64,000 bases of DNA from a bacterium (GTDB taxonomy: Bacteria; Bdellovibrionota_C; UBA2361; SZUA-149; JAEUWB01). The stretch covers positions 50,648 to 114,647 of the forward strand of contig JAEUWB010000006.1 in assembly GCA_016786595.1 (NCBI GenBank). Reading direction: 5' to 3'. Below the pieces are notes generated by a model that was not told the DNA's origin, did no database searches, and was given only the letters and a program-made list of their open reading frames with translations. This document shows, one piece after another, positions 2,631-58,802 of the stretch. A program made the translations under genes and the position numbers. Position 1 is the first letter of the stretch. Each line of letters starts with the position of its first letter.

Positions 2631-3509
2631 ATGGAAATAAAATTCCTCAACAAGTTAATAGATTACTCTCAGAGATTTCGCCACGCCAAATATCTGAAAA
2701 TTATTATTGTGCTTTTTCTCGGAGTTATCTTAGCACTAACGATCACAAGTAGCTTGGGGCAACTTGGTCTAGCAGCACGCGTTCAGCCGGGCAAACTTTT
2801 GCAACTCTCACTTATTTCTTTAATTTTTTCCGTGCTCCGCGCAATCCAGTGGAATCAAGCTGCCTTAAACTATGGTCATCGCGAAGCGCTGAGCGCTTCG
2901 ATTGGCACGCAATTTCGTGCTACCTTTGTCGACCTGACAGTTTTTCCGGCACGAATTTCTTCCGATATCTATCGCTATCAAACTCTCAGCGGCATCTCCG
3001 CTCCGGCGAAATTACGAACTGTAGCCACATATCGACTTTCGACAATGATTCCTCTGATCTTAGTTATTTTTTATGCGCTATGCTCCGAGGTCACAACAGA
3101 GATTTGGTCGCTGTTCTTGGCATTACTTGGACTGAGTGTGGGGCTTGTGATCTATAGAATTTTTCGCCGTTATAATTTTTTCAATAGCAGTGATTTAATT
3201 TTACTCGCTAAGCTTGCCGCGCTTGGAGTGCTGGCCTTATTGGTTGATCTTTTTAGGTCCTATTTATTGATCTCAACATTTACGGTGATGCCTTTTGCTG
3301 AATACGCCACTAAACATTTAATCGCGCAGGGGATTGGCGCCCTGAGTGGCCTACCGCTGGGTATTGGCGCAAAAGATCTGAGCTTGATTTACTTTTTTAA
3401 AAGCATTTTGACTTCTCCTCAGGTTGGCGCATTTATCGCAGTGCAGCGGCTTACGGGAGAGCTTTTAGGAGCTTTTCTAGGATTCCTACTATCTCTTAAA
3501 CATAAGTAA
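2631..3509 (+). CDS. Flippase-like / lysyl-phosphatidylglycerol-synthase TM-region-like membrane protein
   Basis: 292 aa with multiple TM helices, divergent from the large membrane protein. The architecture is typical of LPG_synthase_TM-type partners of membrane glycosyltransferases. Confidence 0.45.
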   Translation: MEIKFLNKLIDYSQRFRHAKYLKIIIVLFLGVILALTITSSLGQLGLAARVQPGKLLQLSLISLIFSVLRAIQWNQAALNYGHREALSASIGTQFRATFVDLTVFPARISSDIYRYQTLSGISAPAKLRTVATYRLSTMIPLILVIFYALCSEVTTEIWSLFLALLGLSVGLVIYRIFRRYNFFNSSDLILLAKLAALGVLALLVDLFRSYLLISTFTVMPFAEYATKHLIAQGIGALSGLPLGIGAKDLSLIYFFKSILTSPQVGAFIAVQRLTGELLGAFLGFLLSLKHK

Positions 3510-3621
3510 TTCAGTTACTTAGAGCGCTTACTCGTTGCTACAGTTTTTTAATATTTCTTAAGTCACCCAGCTGCTCGTGAGGGGCATAACGGTGTTGGAG
3601 AATTTAGGATGTAAGGGAACC

Positions 3622-5184
3622 ATGCATAGCTTGAATCATCGGCTGAAAATCACAACTTTAATCGCAGCAGCATTGATTAATTTCTCTCTGACGAATCCTT
3701 CCTTTGCAGACGAGATTAAACGCTACATCGTGTTTAAAAACCAAAGCAGGTCAGTCCTAGCGGCAACTTCTCAGCGGATTCTCGCCCAGGCGCAAGAGCG
3801 AACAACCTTAGCTCATCTCTCCTCAGAGATTGTCAGCATCACAGCAGAGCAAGCAAGTGCTTTAGCTGGCGATGCAAATGTCACTGAAGTAATCGCCGAT
3901 CGCGAAATCAAACTAGTACGTGACCCCAACGACCCACTTTATATCAATGGCTACCAATGGGGGCTTTCACAAATTAATGCACAAGGTCTTTGGGATAGTT
4001 CGACAAATACCTCAAGTGTTGTGATTGCTAATCTTGATACTGGAGTGGATTATACGCATCCGGATCTTGCGCCGAGTATCTGGAGAAATACGGCCGAAAT
4101 TTCTAATAATGGCGTGGATGATGACGGCAATGGCTTGATTGACGATCTCATCGGGTTTGATTTTGCCGATAACGATGCTAATCCAATTGACCTCGATGGT
4201 CACGGCACAGGAACAGCGGGGATCTCTGCGGCACGTGGGAATGACGGCTATGGAATGACGGGCGTTTCGTGGCAATCGAAAATTATTCCGCTCAAAGTTT
4301 TTTCTGACAATGGGCAAGGTTTTCTTTCGGCCGTATTGCAGTCGATCAACTATGTCATTCATTTAAAATCTACGGGTAAGGCCAATATCGCGCTACTAAA
4401 TATGTCCTTTGGTTACCAGGGCTATTCCAAAGCCATCGAAAATGCCTTTGCTGCACTTGATGCCTACGGAATCGTAGCTATTGCTGCAGCCGGCAACGAA
4501 GCAGTTAATAATGATTCGAGCCGCCATGCGCTTTATCCTGCTAGTTTCGACTTACCAAATATGATCTCAGTCGCAGCGAGCACCGAGAATGGCACTTTGG
4601 CATCCTTTAGCAATTACGGCTTGCGTTCGGTTGACCTTGCTGCCCCGGGAACGAACATCGCAATGCCGGTGCCGCTGAGCTATGGTTGGCAGACTCCATT
4701 TGGGCTCGCCGATGGCACTTCATTTTCGGCACCGATTGTTTCAGGCGTTGTCGCCCATATGCTTTCCCAGAATCCAGGCCTTACTCCATTACAAATCCGG
4801 GCGATTTTAAATAAAACGGTGACCCAAACTCCATCATTTCAAGGTAAAACTGTATCAGCTGGGGTTGTCAACGCTTCCAGGGCAGTGCAAGCATCAGTTA
4901 ATCTTCCACTTGCTCGGGTCACCGGCAAGAGCACTGCGCGCGTTGGTCGACGCAACAAGAATTTAGCGGGAGTGAAGGTGCGACTTGTCAGCGAAGATGG
5001 GCGCCTTGCTTATGAAACAAAGACAAATAGCTCTGGGCGCTATACTTTCAGCAACATCCCGCCAGGAAACTATTATTTAAGTCCATCACGAAGAAACTAT
5101 CGTTTTACCCGTTCGAACTACACAACCGGCGATATTATGGGTGGCACAGTTGAGGTTAAATTCTCAGCACGTCGGCGCCGTTAG
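3622..5184 (+). CDS. Secreted subtilisin-like serine protease (peptidase S8) with a C-terminal carboxypeptidase-regulatory-like beta-domain
   Basis: Catalytic-triad motifs DTGVDYTHPDL, HGTGTAGI and GTSFSAPIVSG. Signal peptide MHSLNHRLKITTLIAAALINFSLTNPSFA. ATG at 3622 is preceded by AAGGGA; the listed ORF start at 3577 is a GTG. Confidence 0.85.
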   Translation: MHSLNHRLKITTLIAAALINFSLTNPSFADEIKRYIVFKNQSRSVLAATSQRILAQAQERTTLAHLSSEIVSITAEQASALAGDANVTEVIADREIKLVRDPNDPLYINGYQWGLSQINAQGLWDSSTNTSSVVIANLDTGVDYTHPDLAPSIWRNTAEISNNGVDDDGNGLIDDLIGFDFADNDANPIDLDGHGTGTAGISAARGNDGYGMTGVSWQSKIIPLKVFSDNGQGFLSAVLQSINYVIHLKSTGKANIALLNMSFGYQGYSKAIENAFAALDAYGIVAIAAAGNEAVNNDSSRHALYPASFDLPNMISVAASTENGTLASFSNYGLRSVDLAAPGTNIAMPVPLSYGWQTPFGLADGTSFSAPIVSGVVAHMLSQNPGLTPLQIRAILNKTVTQTPSFQGKTVSAGVVNASRAVQASVNLPLARVTGKSTARVGRRNKNLAGVKVRLVSEDGRLAYETKTNSSGRYTFSNIPPGNYYLSPSRRNYRFTRSNYTTGDIMGGTVEVKFSARRRR

Positions 5185-6744: not shown

Positions 6745-6925
6745 GCTTAGGCTTGAACTTGAACTTCCTCTAATCCTGCTTCAATTCTCACAACAAGATC
6801 ATCGGCTAAGTATCATGATTGCATGGTTGTCACGTAGTCAGTCTAAGAAAAAGAATAAGTTCAAGCCTAAGCTGAAGAATTTCCGTCACTTGCAATCACA
6901 GCCTAGTTCTAAGCCTAAAGCTAAC
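6745..6925. repeat. REP-like palindromic intergenic element (copy 1 of >=7): left arm 'gcttaggcttgaacttgaactt', right arm 'aagttcaagcctaagc' plus 'ctaagcctaaagc'
   Basis: Inverted arms read directly. Lies between the convergent ppa and S1-protease genes. The overlapping 62-aa ORF 6743..6931 is a translation artefact of the repeat. Confidence 0.7.
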
Positions 6926-9708: not shown

Positions 9709-9786
9709 GCTTAGGCTTAACCCTACGCTTACGCCAAATGGGAAGGGTAAGGGAAAGTTCAAGCCTAAGCCTAAGTTTTCCTCGCA
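9709..9786. repeat. REP-like palindromic element (copy 2): 'gcttaggcttaa ... gggaagggtaagggaaag ... aagttcaagcctaagcctaag'
   Basis: Inverted arms with a purine-rich loop; lies between ndk and rlmN, which are co-oriented. Confidence 0.75.
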
Positions 9787-9887
9787 AGCCGATCTGTTGA
9801 ATTAAAGAAAACGACTAACAATATAATTGCGAGCGAATTACAACAGAGAAAAAATCCCCGCAACGACGTATTTAGCCAAAATCACAC

Positions 9888-26471: not shown

Positions 26472-26785
26472 AATTATTTTGCAGTCTCCAATTAACGTAC
26501 AACGCCGGTTTGTATACAGAATTAGATCTGGCCGCAACTGTAGAGATAAATAGTCCGTAATTGCTTAATTTAAAAATCTTGAGTAATAATGAGCCCCTTT
26601 CGGGTAGTAGGGGATTATTAATAGGTTTTGAAACTGTTTTCAAAAGTTAATTTATTAACTTTTAGAAAACACTTCATCGCACCGTAGTCCCAATTTTTAA
26701 TTGGGCGAAGGCGGATAAGCCTTGCGAATCTGTTGGTTCAAGTTGCTCGCCATGATGCGGGCAAGTTCAACCAACAGGTGAAGTT

Positions 26786-27025
26786 ATGGGGAAATTTAAT
26801 CCAGAAGAAAGCCGTCTCTATCGGCAGTTCCGCACGGGCGGACTCGTTCTCGTCATTTGTGCAGTGCTAATTGGCATGCTTGGCATGAGTCCGATCGCCC
26901 AGCGACTTGATGCCTCAGTCTTTGGAATGCTGGCACTGCTATGCCTTTTTGGCGGGGTGATGCTGATCTTGATCGGCCTCGGGCTTTTCCTCCTGACAAT
27001 ACTCAAGGGGAGCAAAAGACTGTGA
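26786..27025 (+). CDS. Small hydrophobic protein (79 aa, 2 TM)
   Basis: ORF only. Confidence 0.3.
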   Translation: MGKFNPEESRLYRQFRTGGLVLVICAVLIGMLGMSPIAQRLDASVFGMLALLCLFGGVMLILIGLGLFLLTILKGSKRL

Positions 27026-27243
27026 AGTGCATCAGTTTAGCGCTACTCGTTGCTCTAACATTGAGCGCAATCGTTGCAACAAAGCTCAATCTTAACACGG
27101 TCGCAGAGTCTCTCTTGCTACTCTCTGCCTTGGGCTGGATTATCGTTTTGGCGATTTTTCATGCTCAGGCCAAAACCAAATTTTGGGAGGAAAACGCTGC
27201 GCGGCTGTTCCCTAACAGCTCCAAAGGCATTCCCAAAGACTAA
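27022..27243 (+). CDS. Small hydrophobic protein (GTG start overlapping the preceding stop; 73 aa, 2 TM)
   Basis: GTGA overlap with the previous ORF; hydrophobic. Confidence 0.3.
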   Translation: MKCISLALLVALTLSAIVATKLNLNTVAESLLLLSALGWIIVLAIFHAQAKTKFWEENAARLFPNSSKGIPKD

Positions 27244-27248
27244 ACACT

Positions 27249-27503
27249 ATGAACGATCAAGGAACGCAAGAAAACTTAAAGGCAGAGTCCGGTCACATTC
27301 CTGGCTGGCTTTTACTTTTGCTCGTCGTGGTGATGTTGTTGTGCTACCTTGATGGATCGATCTTGAACCTGGTCGATCCAAGCAATGCTCCACATCAATC
27401 AACAGGGGAAAAATTGATCGAGTCATTCGAGGCTGGAGCTAATCGATTTTCCCGAGACCCAAGTCTTGATGGCATCAGCCCAGAAGAAGCAGGTGAAAAG
27501 TAA
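27249..27503 (+). CDS. Small membrane protein (84 aa)
   Basis: ORF with one TM helix. Confidence 0.3.
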   Translation: MNDQGTQENLKAESGHIPGWLLLLLVVVMLLCYLDGSILNLVDPSNAPHQSTGEKLIESFEAGANRFSRDPSLDGISPEEAGEK

Positions 27504-27660
27504 CTGCGACTACGACCATGCTTGGGCCTAAGGTTGATCAAAATCCCCTACGGCCCTCTTTGAAAATTTTCTATAAACATCTTGAATGACCTGTTGCATT
27601 AATTTATAATCGTGAACTCGGGCAGTAGAGAGAATTAACCGGTTTTACGAAGGATGATAT

Positions 27661-27724
27661 CCTCGAGGTAATGATTTAAGTCGGCGGCGCTTTACTGTTG
27701 CCAGCTTAAATCATTGCCTCGAGG
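27661..27724 (+). promoter_or_regulatory. 20-bp-stem hairpin ('cctcgaggtaatgatttaag' / 'cttaaatcattgcctcgagg') whose 3' arm contains the GAGGT Shine-Dalgarno of the ORF starting at 27732
   Basis: One mismatch in 20 bp; loop of 24 nt; the ATG lies 7 nt after the stem. Confidence 0.5.
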
Positions 27725-27731
27725 TAAACTC

Positions 27732-27929
27732 ATGAAACGTAGCATCAAACTCGAAATCGCAGCAGCTGTAGTTCTATTTTTGGGCTTTGCTACAACAGTT
27801 GTTGCCCATCACTATCACGCCCCGTACGCGATCCAGCAGGCTTGCGGCAAGTTCGCCTTGCTCTGTATGATTTCTGCGGGAATCTTGTTCGGCATCTTTG
27901 CAGAAAAATTTCGCATAGCGGAAGACTAA
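27732..27929 (+). CDS. Small membrane protein (65 aa, 2 TM; contains an HHYH motif)
   Basis: ATG with GAGGT SD; hydrophobic. Confidence 0.35.
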   Translation: MKRSIKLEIAAAVVLFLGFATTVVAHHYHAPYAIQQACGKFALLCMISAGILFGIFAEKFRIAED

Positions 27930-28002
27930 ACGCAAAGGTCTAAGTTGGCAAAGGTTGCAAGCAATTCTCTCTACTGCCAACTTCCTTCCCCAGAGAACAA
28001 TG

Positions 28003-28311
28003 TTACTTACTATTAGGCGCAGCTTTTGTTGTCCGAGCAATTGAATCCACCTCGTACCCTGCGTCTGTGACATATTTTTTAATTTGCTCATCGGAAAGCG
28101 TCTGACCGTCTTTGATTTCAAGGTGCATATTCTTCTTTTCTAAACTGACTTCAACTTTAGAAACTTGGGGCATATCAGAGAATGTCTTGGTCAGTCCTTG
28201 CGAGCAAAATGAGCAGACCATGCCATTGACGCCGACCTCAATTGTCTCGGCCAAAGCTTGAGTAGCGCCTAAAAACAATAAACATGTGGTAAGAATTATT
28301 TTGTGTTTCAT
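28003..28311 (-). CDS. Periplasmic heavy-metal-associated (HMA) domain protein (CopZ-like metallochaperone with signal peptide)
   Basis: GMVCSFCSQG = MxCxxC metal-binding motif; N-terminal signal peptide. Confidence 0.75.
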   Translation of the reverse strand: MKHKIILTTCLLFLGATQALAETIEVGVNGMVCSFCSQGLTKTFSDMPQVSKVEVSLEKKNMHLEIKDGQTLSDEQIKKYVTDAGYEVDSIARTTKAAPNSK

Positions 28312-28410
28312 GGTTTATACCTCGTTATCTAAGTTAACAGATTGCCGCGGTCGCATGAAATAAAATTTCATGCTCCCTCGCAATGACTGACGGCCCCGTT
28401 CGCCATCTCT

Positions 28411-28576
28411 GAATACGGTTGAGATTGAGTCGATGTCGAGGAACGGACCTTAATACAGAGCAAGAAGCGCGCTTTATTGTAATAAATGAGCAGCGCAGCA
28501 ATCTCCCTGACGACTTGTGCGCCGTAGTCGGCAAAGCCGCATAGGCGGAAGAGATCGGCCAATCTCGGCCGTATTC
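28411..28576. repeat. MITE-like structured repeat (family 3), full-length copy 3 with 17-bp terminal inverted repeats 'gaatacggttgagattg' / 'caatctcggccgtattc'
   Basis: Contains both halves found separately in copies 1 and 2. Confidence 0.75.
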
Positions 28577-28577
28577 C

Positions 28578-40180: not shown

Positions 40181-40203
40181 GGCGTATCTGAAAACGCGAT
40201 TTG

Positions 40204-40284
40204 GCTTAGGCTTGAACTTATACTTCCCCTTAAGCTTTTTTAAAAAAGGTTAAGGGAAAGGGAAAGGGAAAGTTCAAGCCTAAG
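40204..40284. repeat. REP-like palindromic element (copy 3): 'gcttaggcttgaactta ... ggttaagggaaagggaaagggaaag ... ttcaagcctaag'
   Basis: Read directly. Confidence 0.75.
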
Positions 40285-40298
40285 TTTGAAAAAAACAA

Positions 40299-41880: not shown

Positions 41881-41986
41881 TCTTGAACTTTGGCTTGAGC
41901 TTGAGCTTACCTCTATTCCCATAAAATAACCAATAGATTTTGTTACTCAGATTAAGGTAAAGGATAAGCTTATATTCAAGTTCAAG
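41881..41986. repeat. REP-like palindromic element (copy 4, degenerate left arm) in the divergent mcm / acyl-CoA carboxyltransferase intergenic region
   Basis: 'tcttgaactttggcttgagcttgagctta ... aagttcaagcctaagcc'. Confidence 0.6.
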
Positions 41987-42037
41987 CCTAAGCCTATCAG
42001 CACAACACGCTTGAATGCTATATCGCTGAGATAAGAA

Positions 42038-45726: not shown

Positions 45727-45736
45727 GCGTAGTTTA

Positions 45737-45801
45737 AGCTTAGGCTTGAACTTCCCCTTCCGTCTTCCTAGGATAAGTAAAAGTCTAAGTTCAAGCCTAA
45801 G
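45737..45801. repeat. REP-like palindromic element (copy 5): 'gcttaggcttgaactt-cccctt...-aagttcaagcctaag'
   Basis: Read directly; lies between convergent genes. Confidence 0.8.
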
Positions 45802-50543: not shown

Positions 50544-50555
50544 GTAACCGTATCC

Positions 50556-50667
50556 TTTGGCTTGAACTTATCTTTAACCTTCTGAATGAATGAAGGATAA
50601 AGAACTACAAGAGTTTAGGACAAGGATCAGGATCAGGTAAAGGGCAAGAGCAAGTTCAAGTGCAAGG
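50556..50667. repeat. REP-like palindromic element (copy 6, long-loop variant)
   Basis: 'ggcttgaactta ... aagttcaagtgcaagg' arms around a ~80-nt insert. Confidence 0.6.
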
Positions 50668-54275: not shown

Positions 54276-56102
54276 TTAAGCAACGTGCTCAGTGAAAATC
54301 TTCCACCGCACAAAACTGCTGACACCTTCACGATCCGCTCGAGGAGTGCTTCTGACTTTTTCTCCGGATTTAACTCCGTCGAGTTTAGACATAAAGCGTT
54401 CTCTCTGGAATCCACTCTTTGTGAGATCGGTAACCACAAAGTCAAACGTCAATGCATCACCATGGGCGACAATCCGCGTTCCATAGATCGCTTGATGTCC
54501 CTGCCAGTGCTCAATTTGGCCATCTCCCATGGCAATGATGTCTTCTTCAAGTTTGCTAAATGGAGTGCCGGCCGTGTTTTGATTGGCACGACGCCAGTCA
54601 ATGTCCATTCCATCTGCGATGCGTAAAAGCGCGCAAACAAAAGCGGCCTTAAGATCCTTTGGAAAGGGCATACCCCCTCCATGATAGAGGCAAATTTCGG
54701 CCAGTTGTCCGACTTCCTCATCAGTGAGGAGCCCCTCAAACTTGCCGTTCTTGGCCATTTCCAGAATCATGTCATGTGAATACTCGTAGTGGTGCTTACG
54801 AGCGTCCTCGGGCGACTTATTCTTCATGCCATGACCGATGTCGTGCAGAGCTCCAGCAAGACGTAACAGCAAGAGCGCTCGATCGTCGAGGTACTTGAAG
54901 TTACCACCTTTCCTTCCAAAGAAAAGCGAAGCCAAGGACTCGACAATCTTGAGGACCCTGATCACGTGACGTTGAGTGTGTTCGGTCATGTACCAGGGCG
55001 CATGAACGCGCGTCATGATGCCAAGCCCAAAACTCACCATATCCTTAGCAGTAAGTTCCGCCTCTTCCGGAATCGGCTGAGCGAGTTTACGAGCGATTTC
55101 TCGCATCAGCTCACTCTGATCTTGACCTTCTTCGAGTCGAAGCGTGACTGCATCCTGCTGACCGCGCAATTCATATTCCGACAAGCGCCAGCGCGGAGGC
55201 TGAGCATCTTTCTTCCAATGACGAAGCACAACGAGCTTTGTTACCCCGTTTTGCATTGCGCCGATCGCATAGTGGCAGTCATGCTTTTCCGCCAAGGCTT
55301 CCAGTTGCCGGTAACCCCAATTGGAATAGAGCGGTTCCTGACAAATCAGCACTCGGTATTCGCCAGCAACGACCTCGATCGCCGATTGCTTGACGATGTC
55401 CGGAAGCGGATTTGTTTCGGCAAGACCAAGCAGCCACTTCCAAGCGTCCTTATCCCTACGACGAGTATCGTTCGCGATGCAGACTAGTGCATTGAGAGGT
55501 GCTTCTCGCACGACAACGTCAAGGCCATGAGCAATACGGACCTCTGATGACTTGGCGTCTCTGTGGTAATTATCGCGGTCACAAATGGCCCCGATTCTTC
55601 CCCAACGCCGAGCATGTTTGTCGACTTGTCCATTCGACCCCCAAGCACCGGTAAAGCAAAGCGCAGGATTTGAGACAATCACAACCTTTGCCCCAGCCTC
55701 AACAAGCGGAGCCCAATTGATTTTCGTGCCCCGGTGATGGTCGATGATTTCAACCAAAGTACCTGTGCGCGTGAGTGCTTTGACTTTAGCCTGCACTTGT
55801 TCGACAAGCCCCTGGTCGGAGGACGGTAACGGTGTTTCGAGGATGATGATCCTACGAGTTCTGCCCGGATCAACTTGAAGTGCAAGGAAGGTGTCACGCC
55901 AGAAACTTTTGGGGTTCCCAGTTTGTTCTTCGCTGCAAACAACGTCTACGCGTTCCTTTGCCGCAAGAAGTTGCCGAAAGGTAATCGCCCCCATTGCAAC
56001 ACCATGAGCATCGGGACGCACGAAAAGAATCGTCTCTCGCCGATGGAATGGCAAGCTGCCATTTTGCTTTCGCTCCCGTGGAGCGCGTGTAGTTTTTTTC
56101 AT
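54276..56102 (-). CDS. DHH-family phosphoesterase fused to an HD-domain phosphohydrolase (unusual two-domain predicted nuclease/phosphatase)
   Basis: IIDHHRGT (DHH motif) in the N-terminal half; LAGALHDIGHG (HD motif) in the C-terminal half. Start taken at ATG 56102 (MKKTTRAP...). Confidence 0.65.
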   Translation of the reverse strand: MKKTTRAPRERKQNGSLPFHRRETILFVRPDAHGVAMGAITFRQLLAAKERVDVVCSEEQTGNPKSFWRDTFLALQVDPGRTRRIIILETPLPSSDQGLVEQVQAKVKALTRTGTLVEIIDHHRGTKINWAPLVEAGAKVVIVSNPALCFTGAWGSNGQVDKHARRWGRIGAICDRDNYHRDAKSSEVRIAHGLDVVVREAPLNALVCIANDTRRRDKDAWKWLLGLAETNPLPDIVKQSAIEVVAGEYRVLICQEPLYSNWGYRQLEALAEKHDCHYAIGAMQNGVTKLVVLRHWKKDAQPPRWRLSEYELRGQQDAVTLRLEEGQDQSELMREIARKLAQPIPEEAELTAKDMVSFGLGIMTRVHAPWYMTEHTQRHVIRVLKIVESLASLFFGRKGGNFKYLDDRALLLLRLAGALHDIGHGMKNKSPEDARKHHYEYSHDMILEMAKNGKFEGLLTDEEVGQLAEICLYHGGGMPFPKDLKAAFVCALLRIADGMDIDWRRANQNTAGTPFSKLEEDIIAMGDGQIEHWQGHQAIYGTRIVAHGDALTFDFVVTDLTKSGFQRERFMSKLDGVKSGEKVRSTPRADREGVSSFVRWKIFTEHVA

Positions 56103-56107
56103 TTTTT

Positions 56108-56173
56108 CACCTGTTCTCAGAACCGAAAACAAGTTGGGCGAATTGTTATTATTTGCGGTTAAGAGAACAGGTG
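56108..56173 (-). promoter_or_regulatory. 5'-UTR hairpin: perfect 11-bp stem ('cacctgttctc' / 'gagaacaggtg') that sequesters the AGGTG Shine-Dalgarno of the DHH-HD gene
   Basis: Loop of 44 nt; the stem ends 5 nt before the ATG on the minus strand. Confidence 0.5.
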
Positions 56174-56469
56174 AACTGGAAATGAAAAAGAAATTAAAAA
56201 AACCTAAATGTGCTACCAACTTCCTTCGCGAATTTTAGAGCCCAAATAATCCGCTCTTCCGCGAAGGAAAGGTATAAACTTCTACCCGTAATAGCCTATA
56301 AAAATCAGGCCATAATTTAGCATAATTTTAGTGCTTTTTCAAAGCGTGCCTTTTTAAGGGTTTTATGTTTAGTTTCAGGTGAAAAAATTAATACGGGTAA
56401 AGAATTAAATTACAGTCTCGTAGAGACGTTCGATTTGACTCTGTAAGACTGTAACTTACGATAATTCAG

Positions 56470-57029
56470 GTTTTATATTCGTTGAAGGCTTTGCGTTTAA
56501 GGAAACTTTCGTCACCTGATATGTATTTAGTTTACCATTAGCTTTGAATTTTTAATCTGAGAGTTCAAAGCTGACGGTGACTGAACTAACGAGAAGCGTA
56601 ACGCTCGGTGATGTAAAAAAAATCACCGAGTTTGCCCATACGCATCGTAGCCAGGAACGTGCCTCACTCTTTCAGCCTTCGAGAGCATAGGGGCAATTTT
56701 GTCAGCCATAGATGAGGAATATACCAATAGACTTGGTCTCATCTGTTGTCCCAGGCTTCAGCTTACCTCTCCACTGAAGTCTGGATTCTTTTTATTAACT
56801 GCGAGAGGAACTCATCCTCTCTCCTCCACTACTACCACCTCCCCTTGCTGTTGCACCCCCACTTCTAGCGAGTGGGAGGTTGGTAGACTAAACTGACGAA
56901 TTTCTGACCGCAATTCAACACCTAAAGGCCACGCAAAGATGGTCACGGTTAGTCAAGCAAACAAATAGGTGGGGGGCATCTCCCGACGGCTAGCTGCTCC
57001 TAACTAGCATGTCTCCCACCATTTTTTCC
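56470..57029 (+). ncRNA. Candidate ~560-nt structured non-coding RNA, class unknown
   Basis: The whole 1.37-kb region has no ORF of 60 aa or more in any frame. It holds a run of stable hairpins at 56745..56900, a candidate promoter (TTGACT 56435-56440, N19, GATAAT 56460-56465) and a strong plus-strand terminator at 56968..57029. Strand and ends are inferred. Confidence 0.3.
56968..57029 (+). terminator. Rho-independent terminator: GC-rich nested hairpin 'ggtggggggcatctcccgacggctagc...gctagcatgtctcccacc' followed by 'attttttcc'
   Basis: Read directly; the T-run is only on the plus strand. Confidence 0.6.
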
Positions 57030-57444
57030 GTCTTCTATCCTTGCAGTGAGCCCTCCGTAGCTCTCTTGCCATCTGCCTTTCCTCGTCGAGTTCACTTGAC
57101 TTTTGAGACGTGGCAGAACACGGCCCGTGGGTAGAGAAGCCATCTTACAGCTTCACTGGAGTGCTTTCCTCCGCTACCCCGGGTTCGTTTAAGGTTTATA
57201 AATTTTTCCTCCCTAGCCCTTTTTAACCGTCAAAGGGCAGTGTAAAGCCCGGAAGTAGCAGTGCTGGCTAAGTCACCTAGTCCAGATCACGAGGATCCCG
57301 CGGCAAACAGATCCTCAGCTACTCTCCGGGCCCGTTGAAAAAATTATGGTTATAAAATCGTACGTTACAGTCGCTTCCCTATTGACCATATCGCACTTGT
57401 AATTTTTTTTGCACCTCGTGTCGTTGGATTGCGAAAAGATTGAA

Positions 57445-57578
57445 GCTTAGGCTTGAACTTTTACTTAACCTTATCCTGCCCCTTCCTTTTTCAATTAGGG
57501 GTGGACTCTATTCGGGACAGGACAAGATCAAATTCAAATAGGGAGAAGGATAAGGTTAAGTTCATGCCTAAGCCTAAG
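57445..57578. repeat. REP-like palindromic element (copy 7, long nested-hairpin variant) 8 nt downstream of the TLP stop codon
   Basis: 'gcttaggcttgaactt' / 'aagttcatgcctaagcctaag' with an inner 'ttaaccttatcct' / 'aggataaggttaa' pair. Confidence 0.75.
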
Positions 57579-57585
57579 TCCCGAT

Positions 57586-58332
57586 CTAAATCACTTCTTC
57601 AAGCAGCTTGAGATAATCTGCATCAGACTCAGGCAATTTTGTCTCAACGAGGAATTTGCCATTCTTTTGAATTACTCCTGCGCCGCGCAAAATCCAACCT
57701 GGAGTTTTATCGGTGATCAATCCGCGCTCGCGGGCAAGTGACTCACGTTCTTCAAGTAAGAGGCGGCCAATTTCAGCGTTAATCTCTTGAGGAGATTTCC
57801 CTTCACGTTTTAAGCGATCACTGAGTAAGGCACCGGTCAAATTACGCATCGCAACTTTGCGCTGCCAAATAAAATAGTCGGCAACATGCTCCCGCGAGGG
57901 TAATTCTAGAAGCTTGGTATGAAAAAGCACGCAGAGCCCCAGGGCTTGTGCAAAATTCAAAGCCGCAGCACTAGCTAAGCCCGAGACTAGGCGGCCACGT
58001 TTACGCGGATTCAAGCTCTCGTTTAAATCAAAAAGTAGCGAGATTTCGTCGCCGTGAATGAAAGAGTAATTGATTTTATAGCCAACATCGTAAAGCGCTT
58101 TGGCGGTTTCAACTAAGGCATCAAATACTCGCTTGTCGTAAGGGTAGTCGATATCGGCTTTATCCCAGGCAGCGCCGTAACGCCTTCCATCCATGCGAAT
58201 GATTAGATGCGTATCAGGGAAAACTAAAGTATCGCCGTAGTTTTCAAAGCGTTCAAACAGGCGTTGGTATTCGGCTAACGTCTTTGGCCCATCTTGATCG
58301 GCTTTTGCATCGCGTTTACGTTTTTCTGTCAT
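57586..58332 (-). CDS. Thg1-like protein (TLP): tRNA-His guanylyltransferase family 3'-5' nucleotidyltransferase
   Basis: Thg1 hallmark motifs in the correct spacing: IIRMDGRRYG (hh-R-h-D-G-R) and FIHGDEISLLF (S/G-D-E-x-S-h-h-F carboxylate pair); 248 aa. Confidence 0.65.
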   Translation of the reverse strand: MTEKRKRDAKADQDGPKTLAEYQRLFERFENYGDTLVFPDTHLIIRMDGRRYGAAWDKADIDYPYDKRVFDALVETAKALYDVGYKINYSFIHGDEISLLFDLNESLNPRKRGRLVSGLASAAALNFAQALGLCVLFHTKLLELPSREHVADYFIWQRKVAMRNLTGALLSDRLKREGKSPQEINAEIGRLLLEERESLARERGLITDKTPGWILRGAGVIQKNGKFLVETKLPESDADYLKLLEEVI

Positions 58333-58523: not shown

Positions 58524-58802
58524 AATAAACGTAAGATTTTTAGCCCAAAGACGAGGCGCGGGAATTTTTGAGGCTTTCCAATGTATGTAAATACATGAAA
58601 GACGAGAAAATTTCCCGTAACGACGTATTTGGCAAAAAGCGTAGATAAAAAGCTTAACAAACGCTAATAAACGTAAGATTTTTCGCCCAAAGACGAGGCG
58701 CGGGAATTTTTGAGGCTTTCCAATGTATGTAAATACATGAAAGACGAGAAAATTTCCCGCAACGAAGTATTTGGCAAAAAGCTTACGTTTATTAGCGTTT
58801 GG
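58524..58802. repeat. Tandem direct duplication of a 117-bp structured unit (period 142 bp, 3 mismatches) immediately 3' of rpsI; copy 2 is flanked by a 20-bp inverted repeat
   Basis: Units 58524..58640 and 58666..58782, with a 25-bp spacer. Each unit contains a 'cgggaattttt...aaaatttcccg' long-range stem. ORF 58443..58868 is an artefact. Confidence 0.8.

What the first reader, a model, noticed from the sequence alone, without database searches (positions are those of the whole stretch)
56470..57029. Predicted plus-strand structured ncRNA ending at a strong intrinsic terminator
Consecutive hairpins, with coordinates approximate to within a few nt: ggcttcag / ctgaagtc at about 56748-56775, gagagg / cctctc at about 56802-56820, and ctaccacctccc / gggaggttggtag at about 56838-56896. 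Then comes a GC-rich nested hairpin followed by 'attttttcc' (56968..57029). A G.U pair in the first stem is only valid on the plus strand. TTGACT-N19-GATAAT at 56435..56465 could be its promoter. The size (about 0.5-0.6 kb) is in the range of large bacterial ncRNAs. The RNase P, tmRNA, SRP and tRNA consensus strings that I checked by eye do not fit.
Basis: seen in the sequence. Interest (0 to 1): 0.65.

Follow-up and report, generated by a model that had tools for sequence, protein, structure and literature searches.

The report
Orphan hairpin-rich candidate RNA, unverifiable
A gene-free spacer in an uncultivated, very isolated bacterium holds a 560-base string of strong hairpins with a promoter-like start and a clear terminator, so it may be a new non-coding RNA, but no related sequence exists to test that.

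Summary
The hairpins, the terminator and the promoter-like hexamers are all present, 3-6 nt from the stated coordinates. The stretch 56470-57029 lies in a 1483-nt gene-free spacer (56103-57585) between two minus-strand genes, an HD-CE/HD protein and a Thg1-like protein. It folds far better than shuffled sequence (plus z -7.5, minus z -3.6). Eight of nine local hairpins are more stable on the plus strand, mainly because of one 27-bp hairpin with six G.U pairs. It is not coding and not a repeat within the window. It matches none of 4227 Rfam families and has no tRNA or tmRNA.

The interpretation cannot be confirmed. The organism is so isolated (ribosomal protein L13 at most about 61% identical to anything public) that no homologous locus exists. 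The only same-species contigs are identical, so covariation cannot be tested. Other spacers in this genome are also hairpin-rich (z -3 to -5.6). The promoter match is no better than chance. The fold is a string of local hairpins, not an ornate architecture.

Best reading, at about 0.4: an orphan, independently transcribed plus-strand regulatory RNA that converges on a possibly bidirectional terminator. Main rival: structured UTR or spacer hairpins with no discrete RNA gene. Interest is modest.

The parts
56435..56440 (+). -35-like hexamer TTGACT
   Evidence: It lies inside the inverted repeat H0.
56457..56465 (+). -10-like hexamers: TACGAT at 56457-56462 (16-nt spacer) overlapping GATAAT at 56460-56465 (19-nt spacer). 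The implied start is about 56469-56473.
   Evidence: The match is 9 of 12, and sites of this quality are no more frequent than in shuffles.
56470..57029 (+). Candidate transcript (about 560 nt), a string of 9-10 hairpins
   Evidence: z -7.5; minus strand z -3.6.
56526..56585 (+). H1: 27-bp hairpin with six G.U pairs and a 3-nt loop. This is the strongest plus-strand indicator.
   Evidence: P 0.93. (plus -27.8 against minus -15.9 kcal/mol). (27 against 20 pairs). The only Rfam echoes are eukaryotic miRNA-precursor models, meaning a generic long hairpin.
56596..56643 (+). H2: 10-bp stem CUCGGUGAU / AUCACCGAG with an A-rich loop, on a 5-bp base, followed by UUUG (a weak internal terminator-like site)
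   Evidence: P 0.98 for the inner stem.
56660..56695 (+). Hx: two-tier hairpin
   Evidence: plus -11.9, minus -7.7.
56708..56746 (+). H3: 9 + 5 bp hairpin
   Evidence: P 0.97 and 0.90.
56751..56796 (+). H4: 11-bp stem with G56755.U56780 and a 12-nt CU-rich loop CUUACCUCUCCA, followed by AUUCUUUUUAUU (a second internal terminator-like site). Two same-species contigs end at 56759, inside this stem.
   Evidence: (P 0.99).
56803..56821 (+). H5: 7-bp GAGAGGA / UCCUCUC hairpin, followed by single-stranded UCCUCCAC
   Evidence: P 0.99.
56832..56886 (+). H6: 19-20 bp C-rich / G-rich hairpin. Its loop segment CACCCCCAC is complementary to the 5' arm of the terminator.
   Evidence: (P 0.94). The complementarity is read directly from the sequence.
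56904..56952 (+). H7: 7-bp outer helix (P 0.47) around a 6-bp hairpin with a GCAAA loop (P 0.89)
56968..57029 (+). Intrinsic terminator: 12-bp GC-rich stem with two G.U pairs plus an inner 5-bp helix, then A + U6. On the minus strand the same hairpin is followed by UAUUUGUUUG, so it may work in both directions.
   Evidence: P 0.97; -24.7 / -24.2 kcal/mol.
56406..56458 (.). H0: inverted repeat TAAATTACAGTCTCGTAGAG / CTCTGTAAGACTGTAACTTA overlapping the -35 hexamer. It is more stable on the minus strand. It could be an operator, or a terminator for leftward transcripts.
   Evidence: (I5).
57357..57372 (-). Inverted second copy (15 of 16) of the 16-mer GACTGTAACNTACGAT, which at 56447-56462 covers the -10 region
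   Evidence: (I7). The MFE of 56440-57380 closes with this pairing.
57216..57332 (-). D1 hairpin (57216-57238) and D2 three-way junction (57247-57332), both more stable on the minus strand. They probably belong to the Thg1-like gene's 3' UTR or to a leftward transcript, not to the candidate RNA.
   Evidence: (D2 plus -39.6, minus -45.5).
57437..57587 (.). REP-like long palindrome immediately after the Thg1-like stop codon, a member of a family dispersed through the window
   Evidence: (I1).

Best explanation
A free-standing non-coding RNA of about 560 nt is transcribed rightwards from a sigma-70-like promoter. The promoter is TTGACT 56435-56440, a 16-nt spacer, then TACGAT 56457-56462, giving a start near 56470. 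Transcription stops at the intrinsic terminator at 56968-57027.

The unit sits between two leftward genes. It diverges from the HD-CE/HD gene and converges on the Thg1-like gene, whose transcript may use the same hairpin as a bidirectional terminator.

The RNA folds as beads on a string: nine to ten local hairpins with CU-rich loops and linkers. Weaker terminator-like stops after H2 and H4 could give nested products of about 165 and 325 nt.

By analogy with multi-hairpin regulatory RNAs, it would act in trans by base pairing or as a protein-binding scaffold, with the 27-bp H1 as a plausible RNase III entry site.

What is shown: the structure, its statistical excess, the absence of coding signal, and the terminator. 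What is inferred: transcription, strand, boundaries and every functional step.
For: - Folding excess on the plus strand is z -7.5, against -3.6 on the minus strand. The excess is sustained over 56400-57000, while coding flanks give z near 0.
- Eight of nine hairpins inside 56524-57022 are more stable on the plus strand. The summed difference is about -25 kcal/mol, of which H1 contributes -11.9.
- The elements just outside the proposed boundaries (H0, U2, D2) prefer the minus strand. The strand preference therefore changes where the promoter and terminator predict it should.
- The terminator hairpin plus U6 is the strongest such site found in the window's spacers.
- No plus-strand gene lies upstream that would need that terminator.
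- There is no coding signal. The longest stop-free frame is 81 codons, with no Pfam hit. The 65-aa ORF has only low-complexity hits and was never called as a gene.
- The stretch is unique in the window, unlike the neighbouring REP-like palindrome.
- H4 pairs across position 56759, which argues that the assembly is continuous there.
Against: - No homologue exists, so there is no covariation or conservation evidence.
- The same-species contigs are identical over 56759-57585.
- Pair counts are almost symmetric between the strands except in H1: 135 against 133 pairs, and 16 against 11 G.U.
- The REP-like palindrome also shows a strand energy bias opposite to its gene, so such a bias can arise without function.
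- Other spacers in this genome reach z -3 to -5.6.
- Long-range helices are weak (P 0.35-0.55), so nothing points to a complex tertiary fold.
- The genome makes little use of Shine-Dalgarno sequences, which weakens an anti-SD pairing mechanism.
Confidence: 0.4

Rival explanations
1. The stretch is a structured spacer, not an RNA gene. The hairpins would be a collection of independent elements, typical of this genome's hairpin-rich spacers. These could be terminators or RNA-stability hairpins of the Thg1-like 3' UTR, leader elements of the HD gene, decayed palindromic repeats, or protein-binding inverted repeats. Any plus-strand transcript would be incidental.
For: - Many other spacers have z -3 to -5.6 on one or both strands.
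- A REP-like palindrome family is dispersed through the window, and one copy sits 400 nt away.
- The minus strand of the same stretch is itself significantly structured (z -3.6).
- Pair counts are nearly symmetric.
- The terminator hairpin is followed by a U-rich tail on the minus strand too.
- The promoter match is at chance level.
Against: - None of the nine hairpins is repeated elsewhere in 64 kb.
- The run of hairpins is longer and denser than in any other spacer.
- H1's six G.U pairs and the 8-of-9 plus-strand preference are unexpected for DNA-level palindromes or minus-strand UTR elements.
- A 1.5-kb spacer is far longer than any other in the window that lacks small ORFs.
Confidence: 0.3
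2. There are two convergent non-coding transcripts, or one RNA of about 925 nt. In the first version, the 16-mer GACTGTAACNTACGAT marks two similar promoter cores facing each other at 56447-56462 (+) and 57372-57357 (-). These would produce a plus RNA (56470-57029) and a minus RNA (about 57349-56960) that share a bidirectional terminator. In the second version, the two 16-mers pair to close a single large RNA precursor.
For: - The 16-mer is 15 of 16 identical in inverted orientation, and these are the only two zero-mismatch hits to the pattern in 64 kb.
- D1 and D2 on the right side prefer the minus strand.
- 56955-57352 is structured on both strands (z -3.6 and -3.9).
- The MFE of 56440-57380 closes with the 16-bp pairing, at z -8.5.
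Against: - The local alignment score of the two regions only equals the best of 300 shuffles.
- The minus-strand copy has no acceptable -35 hexamer and was not called by the promoter scan.
- A U6 terminator in the middle of a 925-nt plus RNA would truncate it.
- MFE programs will use any 16-nt complement that is available.
Confidence: 0.1
3. The stretch is a remnant of a mobile or strain-variable element, or an assembly artefact. The spacer, or the part to the left of 56759, would be a non-autonomous element or variable island bounded by short inverted repeats, or a chimeric join in the MAG contig.
For: - Two assemblies of the same species both stop at exactly 56759.
- 16-nt inverted repeats flank about 900 nt.
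- The neighbouring HD-CE gene is rare (only 2 distant homologues) and lies in the window's most GC-rich kilobase (0.53). Its homologue in L001 lies among Gad2, HicAB and GIY-YIG genes.
Against: - No target-site duplication flanks the repeats.
- There is no second copy in 64 kb and no match in the phage or plasmid collections.
- There is no transposase.
- H4 forms a perfect 11-bp stem across 56759, which is unlikely at a chimeric join.
- Coverage of those contigs is about 1x, so a shared read gap is possible.
- The HD gene is present in the same sample (L010).
Confidence: 0.08
4. The transcript is a small-protein mRNA, encoding the 37-aa ORF (56577-56690) and/or the 65-aa ORF (56699-56896).
For: - Both ORFs lie on the plus strand within the proposed transcript.
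- AGGGG lies 5 nt upstream of the TTG start of the 65-aa ORF.
Against: - The start codons are GTG and TTG.
- There is no Pfam match.
- A search of 1.84 billion representatives gave only three low-complexity hits and no self hit.
- Neither the 65-aa ORF nor the 39-aa minus-strand ORF (56623-56742) is on record as a called gene; the 37-aa ORF itself was not looked up.
- Both ORFs run through the strongest hairpins.
Confidence: 0.04

Closest known systems
Multi-hairpin trans-acting regulatory RNAs such as Staphylococcus aureus RNAIII (514 nt, 14 hairpins; from my own knowledge)
   Same: It is a stand-alone unit with its own promoter and an intrinsic terminator. It is about 0.5 kb long. The architecture is a chain of local hairpins, with C/U-rich loops and linkers such as CUUACCUCUCCA and UCCUCCAC.
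   Different: There is no sequence or Rfam relationship. There is no credible embedded small ORF and no quorum-sensing context. This genome rarely uses Shine-Dalgarno sequences, so the RNAIII mode of pairing to SD regions is doubtful. Expression is unproven.
Large ornate bacterial ncRNAs (OLE, GOLLD, ROOL, HEARO, raiA)
   Same: The size range is similar, the location is intergenic, and there is no coding capacity.
   Different: No match to their Rfam models was found even at E up to 10. No multi-stem junctions or confident long-range helices are predicted. No conservation could be shown.
REP/BIME-type clusters of extragenic palindromes
   Same: The spacer is rich in hairpins, in a genome that does carry a dispersed palindromic family (57437-57587 and six other sites).
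   Different: The hairpins of 56470-57029 are all different from one another and have no other copy in the 64 kb.
Bidirectional intrinsic terminators between convergent genes
   Same: The hairpin at 56968-57020 has a U6 tract on the plus side and UAUUUGUUUG on the minus side. It lies between a rightward unit and the leftward Thg1-like gene.
   Different: It lies 560 nt beyond the Thg1-like stop codon. The minus-strand version has two A.C mismatches in place of the G.U pairs.

Membership tests
Any Rfam 15 family (including OLE, GOLLD, ROOL, HEARO, raiA, 6S, SRP, RNase P, riboswitches, T-box) | Covariance-model score at or above the family's gathering threshold | tested here: not met
   There were 0 hits in the whole window at gathering thresholds. 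At E up to 10, only generic long-hairpin echoes of eukaryotic miRNA precursors appeared on H1.
tRNA / tmRNA | Cloverleaf or tRNA-like domain with a tag reading frame | tested here: not met
   ARAGORN found 0 genes in 64 kb.
Intrinsic (Rho-independent) terminator | GC-rich stem-loop immediately followed by a U tract | tested here: met
   A 12-bp stem (6 of the basal 6 pairs are G-C or U-A) at -24.7 kcal/mol, followed by A + U6 at 57022-57027. The consensus scanner missed it only because the loop is longer than 8 nt.
Sigma-70-type promoter | -35 and -10 hexamers with a 16-18 nt spacer, occurring more often than chance | tested here: inconclusive
   TTGACT-16-TACGAT matches 9 of 12, but 3 such sites were found in 3 kb against 3.1 expected.
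Structured ncRNA in the strict sense (evolutionarily conserved fold) | Compensatory base changes across homologues | not testable with these tools
   No homologous locus was found. Flanking-gene relatives have other synteny. L13 is at most about 61% identical to any public protein. Same-species contigs are identical.
Structured ncRNA (thermodynamic criterion) | Folding energy well below that of dinucleotide shuffles, on one strand preferentially | tested here: met
   z is -7.5 on the plus strand against -3.6 on the minus strand. Eight of nine hairpins favour the plus strand. The preference is dominated by H1.
REP/BIME or MITE-type repeat | Multiple copies in the genome; for MITEs, terminal inverted repeats plus a target-site duplication | tested here: not met
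   There is no second copy of 56470-57029 in 64 kb. A 16-nt inverted pair exists, but no duplication flanks it. Only 64 kb of the genome could be examined.
cis-regulatory leader (riboswitch or attenuator) | Same-strand gene downstream of the terminator | tested here: not met
   The next features downstream on the plus strand are non-coding, followed by the antisense of the Thg1-like gene.
Small-protein gene | ORF with homologues or a family match | tested here: not met
RNAIII-like dual-function regulator | C-rich loops pairing with SD regions of targets, plus an embedded peptide gene | tested here: inconclusive
   CU-rich loops are present, but the genome uses few SD motifs. The duplex predictions were uninformative. 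No credible ORF was found.

The most novel reading that the evidence does not exclude
The stretch is the founding member of a new class of large structured ncRNA from a deep-branching, uncultivated bacterial lineage. It could be a precursor of about 925 nt closed by the 16-bp pairing 56447-56462 / 57357-57372. Alternatively, the terminator could be conditional: the H6 loop CACCCCCAC is complementary to the terminator's 5' arm, and read-through would run antisense into the Thg1-like tRNA-repair gene.
Probability: 0.1. Interest if true: 0.6.

Novelty: new member of a known kind. Interest (0 to 1): 0.33.

Why it matters
If it is expressed, this would be one of the few large non-coding RNAs known from a bacterial lineage with no cultured or sequenced relatives. 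It would be a lead for RNA-based regulation next to a tRNA-repair-type gene (Thg1-like) and a rare HD-CE phosphohydrolase. As it stands, it is a single-sequence prediction. Its main value is as a target for transcriptome mapping once more genomes or RNA data from this lineage appear.

Tried and rejected
Searches for a known RNA family
- Rfam at gathering thresholds on the whole window, and at E up to 10 on three sub-regions, gave no real hit.
- ARAGORN found nothing.

Searches for homologous loci
- A genome-contig scan with the Thg1-like protein found nothing.
- Homologues of the HD protein number 2, at 31-32% identity. The one whose locus was retrieved (P0002, L001) has only 333 nt upstream of its gene.
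- Homologues of the Thg1-like protein reach at most 46% identity and sit in a different TsaD-RsmA-Thg1-methyltransferase context.
- L13 relatives have different synteny or lie at a contig end.
- blastn against the phage and plasmid collections found no match.
- A metagenome pattern built on the H4 stem gave six unrelated chance hits.
- Three viral pattern scans gave nothing, or hits I take to be chance: unrelated by nhmmer, and for the 15-base pattern about as many as I would expect at random.
- nhmmer of the spacer against 1.29 Mb of fetched loci found nothing.

Same-species contigs
- They carry no variation in the region.
- The left half of the candidate could not be retrieved from other assemblies.

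Other hypotheses
- Pseudogene or sORF: rejected.
- Replication origin: rejected, because cumulative GC skew falls almost steadily across the window with no reversal at 56-57 kb.
- CsrB-like GGA decoy: rejected by eye, because the six GGA triplets are about the number expected from composition.
- Anti-SD mechanism: weakened by the low SD usage.
- RNA-RNA target prediction with duplexfold: the first run timed out and the second gave unrealistic long duplexes, so it was discarded.
- Extended terminal-repeat alignment of the two 16-mer regions: not significant beyond the 16-mer itself.
- PADLOC, NCBIfam and PDB sequence searches of the neighbouring proteins added nothing.
- A literature search for HD-CE returned nothing.

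Full report
**Setting**

The finding lies in a 1483-nt gene-free spacer, 56103-57585. To its left is a minus-strand gene for a 608-aa protein with HD-CE/HD domains (54276-56102). The ATG at 56102 is the start used by the identical NCBI protein, whose source is labelled only "bacterium" on a 143,868-bp contig. To its right is a minus-strand Thg1-like gene (57586-58332), followed by rpsI and rplM. Any plus-strand unit here therefore diverges from the HD gene and converges on the Thg1-like gene.

**Checking the observation**

| Element | Coordinates | Note |
|---|---|---|
| H4 | 56751-56761 / 56774-56784 | 11 bp, with the plus-only wobble G56755.U56780 |
| H5 | 56803-56809 / 56815-56821 | 7 bp |
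| H6 | 56832-56850 / 56865-56886 | 19-20 bp with bulges |
| Terminator | 56968-56979 / 57009-57020 | 12 bp with two G.U pairs and an inner 5-bp helix, followed by A + U6 |

- Their pair probabilities are 0.94-0.99.
  - H1 at 56526-56585 (27 bp, six G.U pairs);
  - H2 at 56596-56643;
  - Hx at 56660-56695;
  - H3 at 56708-56746;
  - H7 at 56904-56952.
- TTGACT is at 56435-56440 and GATAAT at 56460-56465, which leaves a 19-nt spacer. The scan tool instead pairs TTGACT with TACGAT at 56457-56462, with a 16-nt spacer.

**Is it more than chance?**

- The 560-nt plus strand folds at -192.4 kcal/mol, against -145.1 +/- 6.3 for dinucleotide shuffles (z -7.5). The minus strand gives z -3.6.
- In 200-nt sliding windows, the coding flanks have z near 0. 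The stretch 56400-57000 stays between -3.0 and -7.3 on the plus strand.
- Two cautions apply. Other spacers of this genome also reach z -3 to -5.6. Promoter-like sites of this quality are as frequent as in shuffled sequence (3 found, 3.1 expected).

**Which strand?**

- Folded one by one, eight of the nine hairpins between 56524 and 57022 are more stable on the plus strand. The summed difference is about -25 kcal/mol.
- The elements just outside the proposed boundaries prefer the minus strand. These are H0 at 56404-56460, U2 at 56217-56273 in the HD leader, and the three-way junction D2 at 57246-57336.
- That switch coincides with the promoter-like site and the terminator, and it is the best internal argument for a plus-strand unit.
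- The argument is not strong. Almost half of the energy difference comes from H1. Total pair counts (135 against 133) and G.U counts (16 against 11) are nearly symmetric. The REP-like palindrome next door shows an energy bias opposite to the gene it follows.

**What it is not**

- It matches none of 4227 Rfam families at gathering thresholds anywhere in the window.
- With permissive filters and E up to 10, the only hits are eukaryotic miRNA-precursor models landing on the long hairpin H1.
- ARAGORN finds no tRNA or tmRNA.
- It is not coding:
  - the longest stop-free frame in the spacer is 81 codons;
  - the ten longest frames have no Pfam match at E up to 1;
  - the 65-aa ORF finds only three low-complexity proteins, and not even itself, among 1.84 billion representatives;
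  - neither of the two ORFs looked up, the 65-aa plus-strand ORF and a 39-aa minus-strand ORF, is on record as a called gene.
- It is not a repeat. Within the 64 kb, only the palindrome at 57437-57587 has other copies, at 6745-6873, 9737-9790, 40200-40290, 41960-41996, 45733-45801 and 50555-50583.
- It has no match in the phage or plasmid collections.
- There is no GC-skew turn that would suggest an origin.

**Comparative evidence is unobtainable**

- The HD protein has two distant homologues at 31-32% identity.
- The Thg1-like protein has none above 46%, and those sit in a conserved TsaD-RsmA-Thg1-methyltransferase context with no large spacer.
- Ribosomal protein L13 is at most about 61% identical to anything among 5.8 billion proteins. 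It is 48-60% identical to 80 species-representative genomes scattered over many phyla.
- The lineage is therefore very isolated, and synteny gives no orthologous spacer.
- Three same-species contigs exist. They are identical to the window over 56759-57585, and the three SNPs lie elsewhere.
- Pattern scans of metagenomes and viral contigs returned only chance matches.

**Architecture and likely mode of action**

- The predicted fold is a chain of local hairpins. The few long-range helices have probabilities of 0.35-0.55. Nothing suggests the multi-junction, pseudoknotted architecture of OLE, GOLLD or ROOL-type RNAs.
- The nearest functional analogy, from my own knowledge, is a multi-hairpin trans-acting regulator such as RNAIII.
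- Features read directly from the sequence:
  - CU-rich exposed segments (H4 loop CUUACCUCUCCA, linker UCCUCCAC);
  - two weaker internal terminator-like sites (H2 followed by UUUG, H4 followed by AUUCUUUUUAUU), which could give nested products;
  - complementarity between the H6 loop (CACCCCCAC) and the 5' arm of the terminator (GUGGGGG), which would allow an antiterminator-like alternative.
- Only a minority of genes in the window carry any Shine-Dalgarno-like motif, so an anti-SD mechanism is doubtful.
- Simple duplex predictions against translation-initiation regions were uninformative.
- On the minus strand the terminator hairpin is followed by UAUUUGUUUG. It may therefore also end the Thg1-like transcript, after that transcript has passed the REP-like palindrome, D2 and D1.

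**Unexplained details**

- The 16-mer GACTGTAACNTACGAT covers the -10 region at 56447-56462. It recurs, 15 of 16 identical and inverted, at 57357-57372. These are the only two zero-mismatch hits to the pattern in the window.
  - The MFE of 56440-57380 closes with this pairing.
  - The similarity does not extend beyond 16 nt, and I saw no target-site duplication.
  - It could be a shared promoter or operator element, a processing stem, or chance.
- Two contigs from different ENA assemblies both end at exactly 56759, inside the 5' arm of H4.
  - Coverage is about 1x, so a shared read gap is possible.
  - A strain-variable junction or a repeat boundary cannot be excluded.
  - The perfect H4 stem across this point argues against a chimeric join.

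**Verdict**

- The interpretation as a plus-strand ncRNA is reasonable and is my leading explanation (about 0.4). It rests on single-sequence thermodynamics, one good terminator and a chance-level promoter match.
- The main rival (about 0.3) is that this is a hairpin-rich spacer or UTR region, of a kind this genome has elsewhere, with no discrete RNA gene.
- If real, it is a new orphan member of a familiar kind: an intergenic regulatory RNA with its own promoter and terminator.
- There is currently no sign that it belongs to, or founds, a class of ornate large RNAs. Interest is modest until transcript data or related genomes exist.

Noticed in passing
window 57437-57587; also 6745-6873, 9737-9790, 40200-40290, 41960-41996, 45733-45801, 50555-50583: A dispersed family of long REP-like palindromes (arms about AGCTTAGGCTTGAACTT... 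/ ...AAGTTCATGCCTAAGCCTAAG) sits in spacers, often right after stop codons. The copy at 57437-57587 folds at -60 kcal/mol.
   Followed up: partly
window 58524-58782: A 142-bp tandem repeat (1.8 copies, 97% matches) lies between rpsI and the Thg1-like gene. The same-species contig L003 carries 100 extra bases there, so copy number varies between assemblies.
   Followed up: partly
window 56093-56192: A 96-nt near-perfect hairpin (-36 to -40 kcal/mol) spans the AGGTGA motif and the ATG start (56100-56102) of the HD-CE gene. In the mRNA it would bury the translation start, so it may be a translational control element.
   Followed up: no
window 56759 (ends of L002/L013 and L003): Two contigs of the same species, from different ENA assemblies, both terminate at exactly this base, inside hairpin H4. 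The cause is unknown: a coverage gap, a strain junction or a repeat boundary.
   Followed up: partly
window 56410, 56447, 57365 (and 20547): The 8-mer TTACAGTC / GACTGTAA has four copies in 64 kb, three of them in this one spacer. Two of them form the inverted repeat H0 around the -35 hexamer. This may be a binding site for a transcription factor.
   Followed up: partly
window 26538-28577: A second long stretch (2 kb) has no ORF of 120 aa or more. It holds several 71-102-aa ORFs, some hydrophobic, and one with a heavy-metal-associated-like GMVCSFC motif. Structure z-scores are mostly unremarkable.
   Followed up: no
whole window: The organism is very isolated. L13 is at most about 61% identical to any of 5.8 billion proteins, and 48-60% identical to 80 genomes spread over many phyla. 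Few genes have a Shine-Dalgarno-like motif.
   Followed up: partly
L001 (Logan SRR22387917 contig), 2958-4646 and neighbours: The nearest HD-CE homologue (32% identity) lies among genes for GIY-YIG, MJ1673, Gad2 and HicAB proteins. This is a defence-island-like context, which hints that the window's HD-CE gene may be an accessory or defence gene. PADLOC gives no hit.
   Followed up: no
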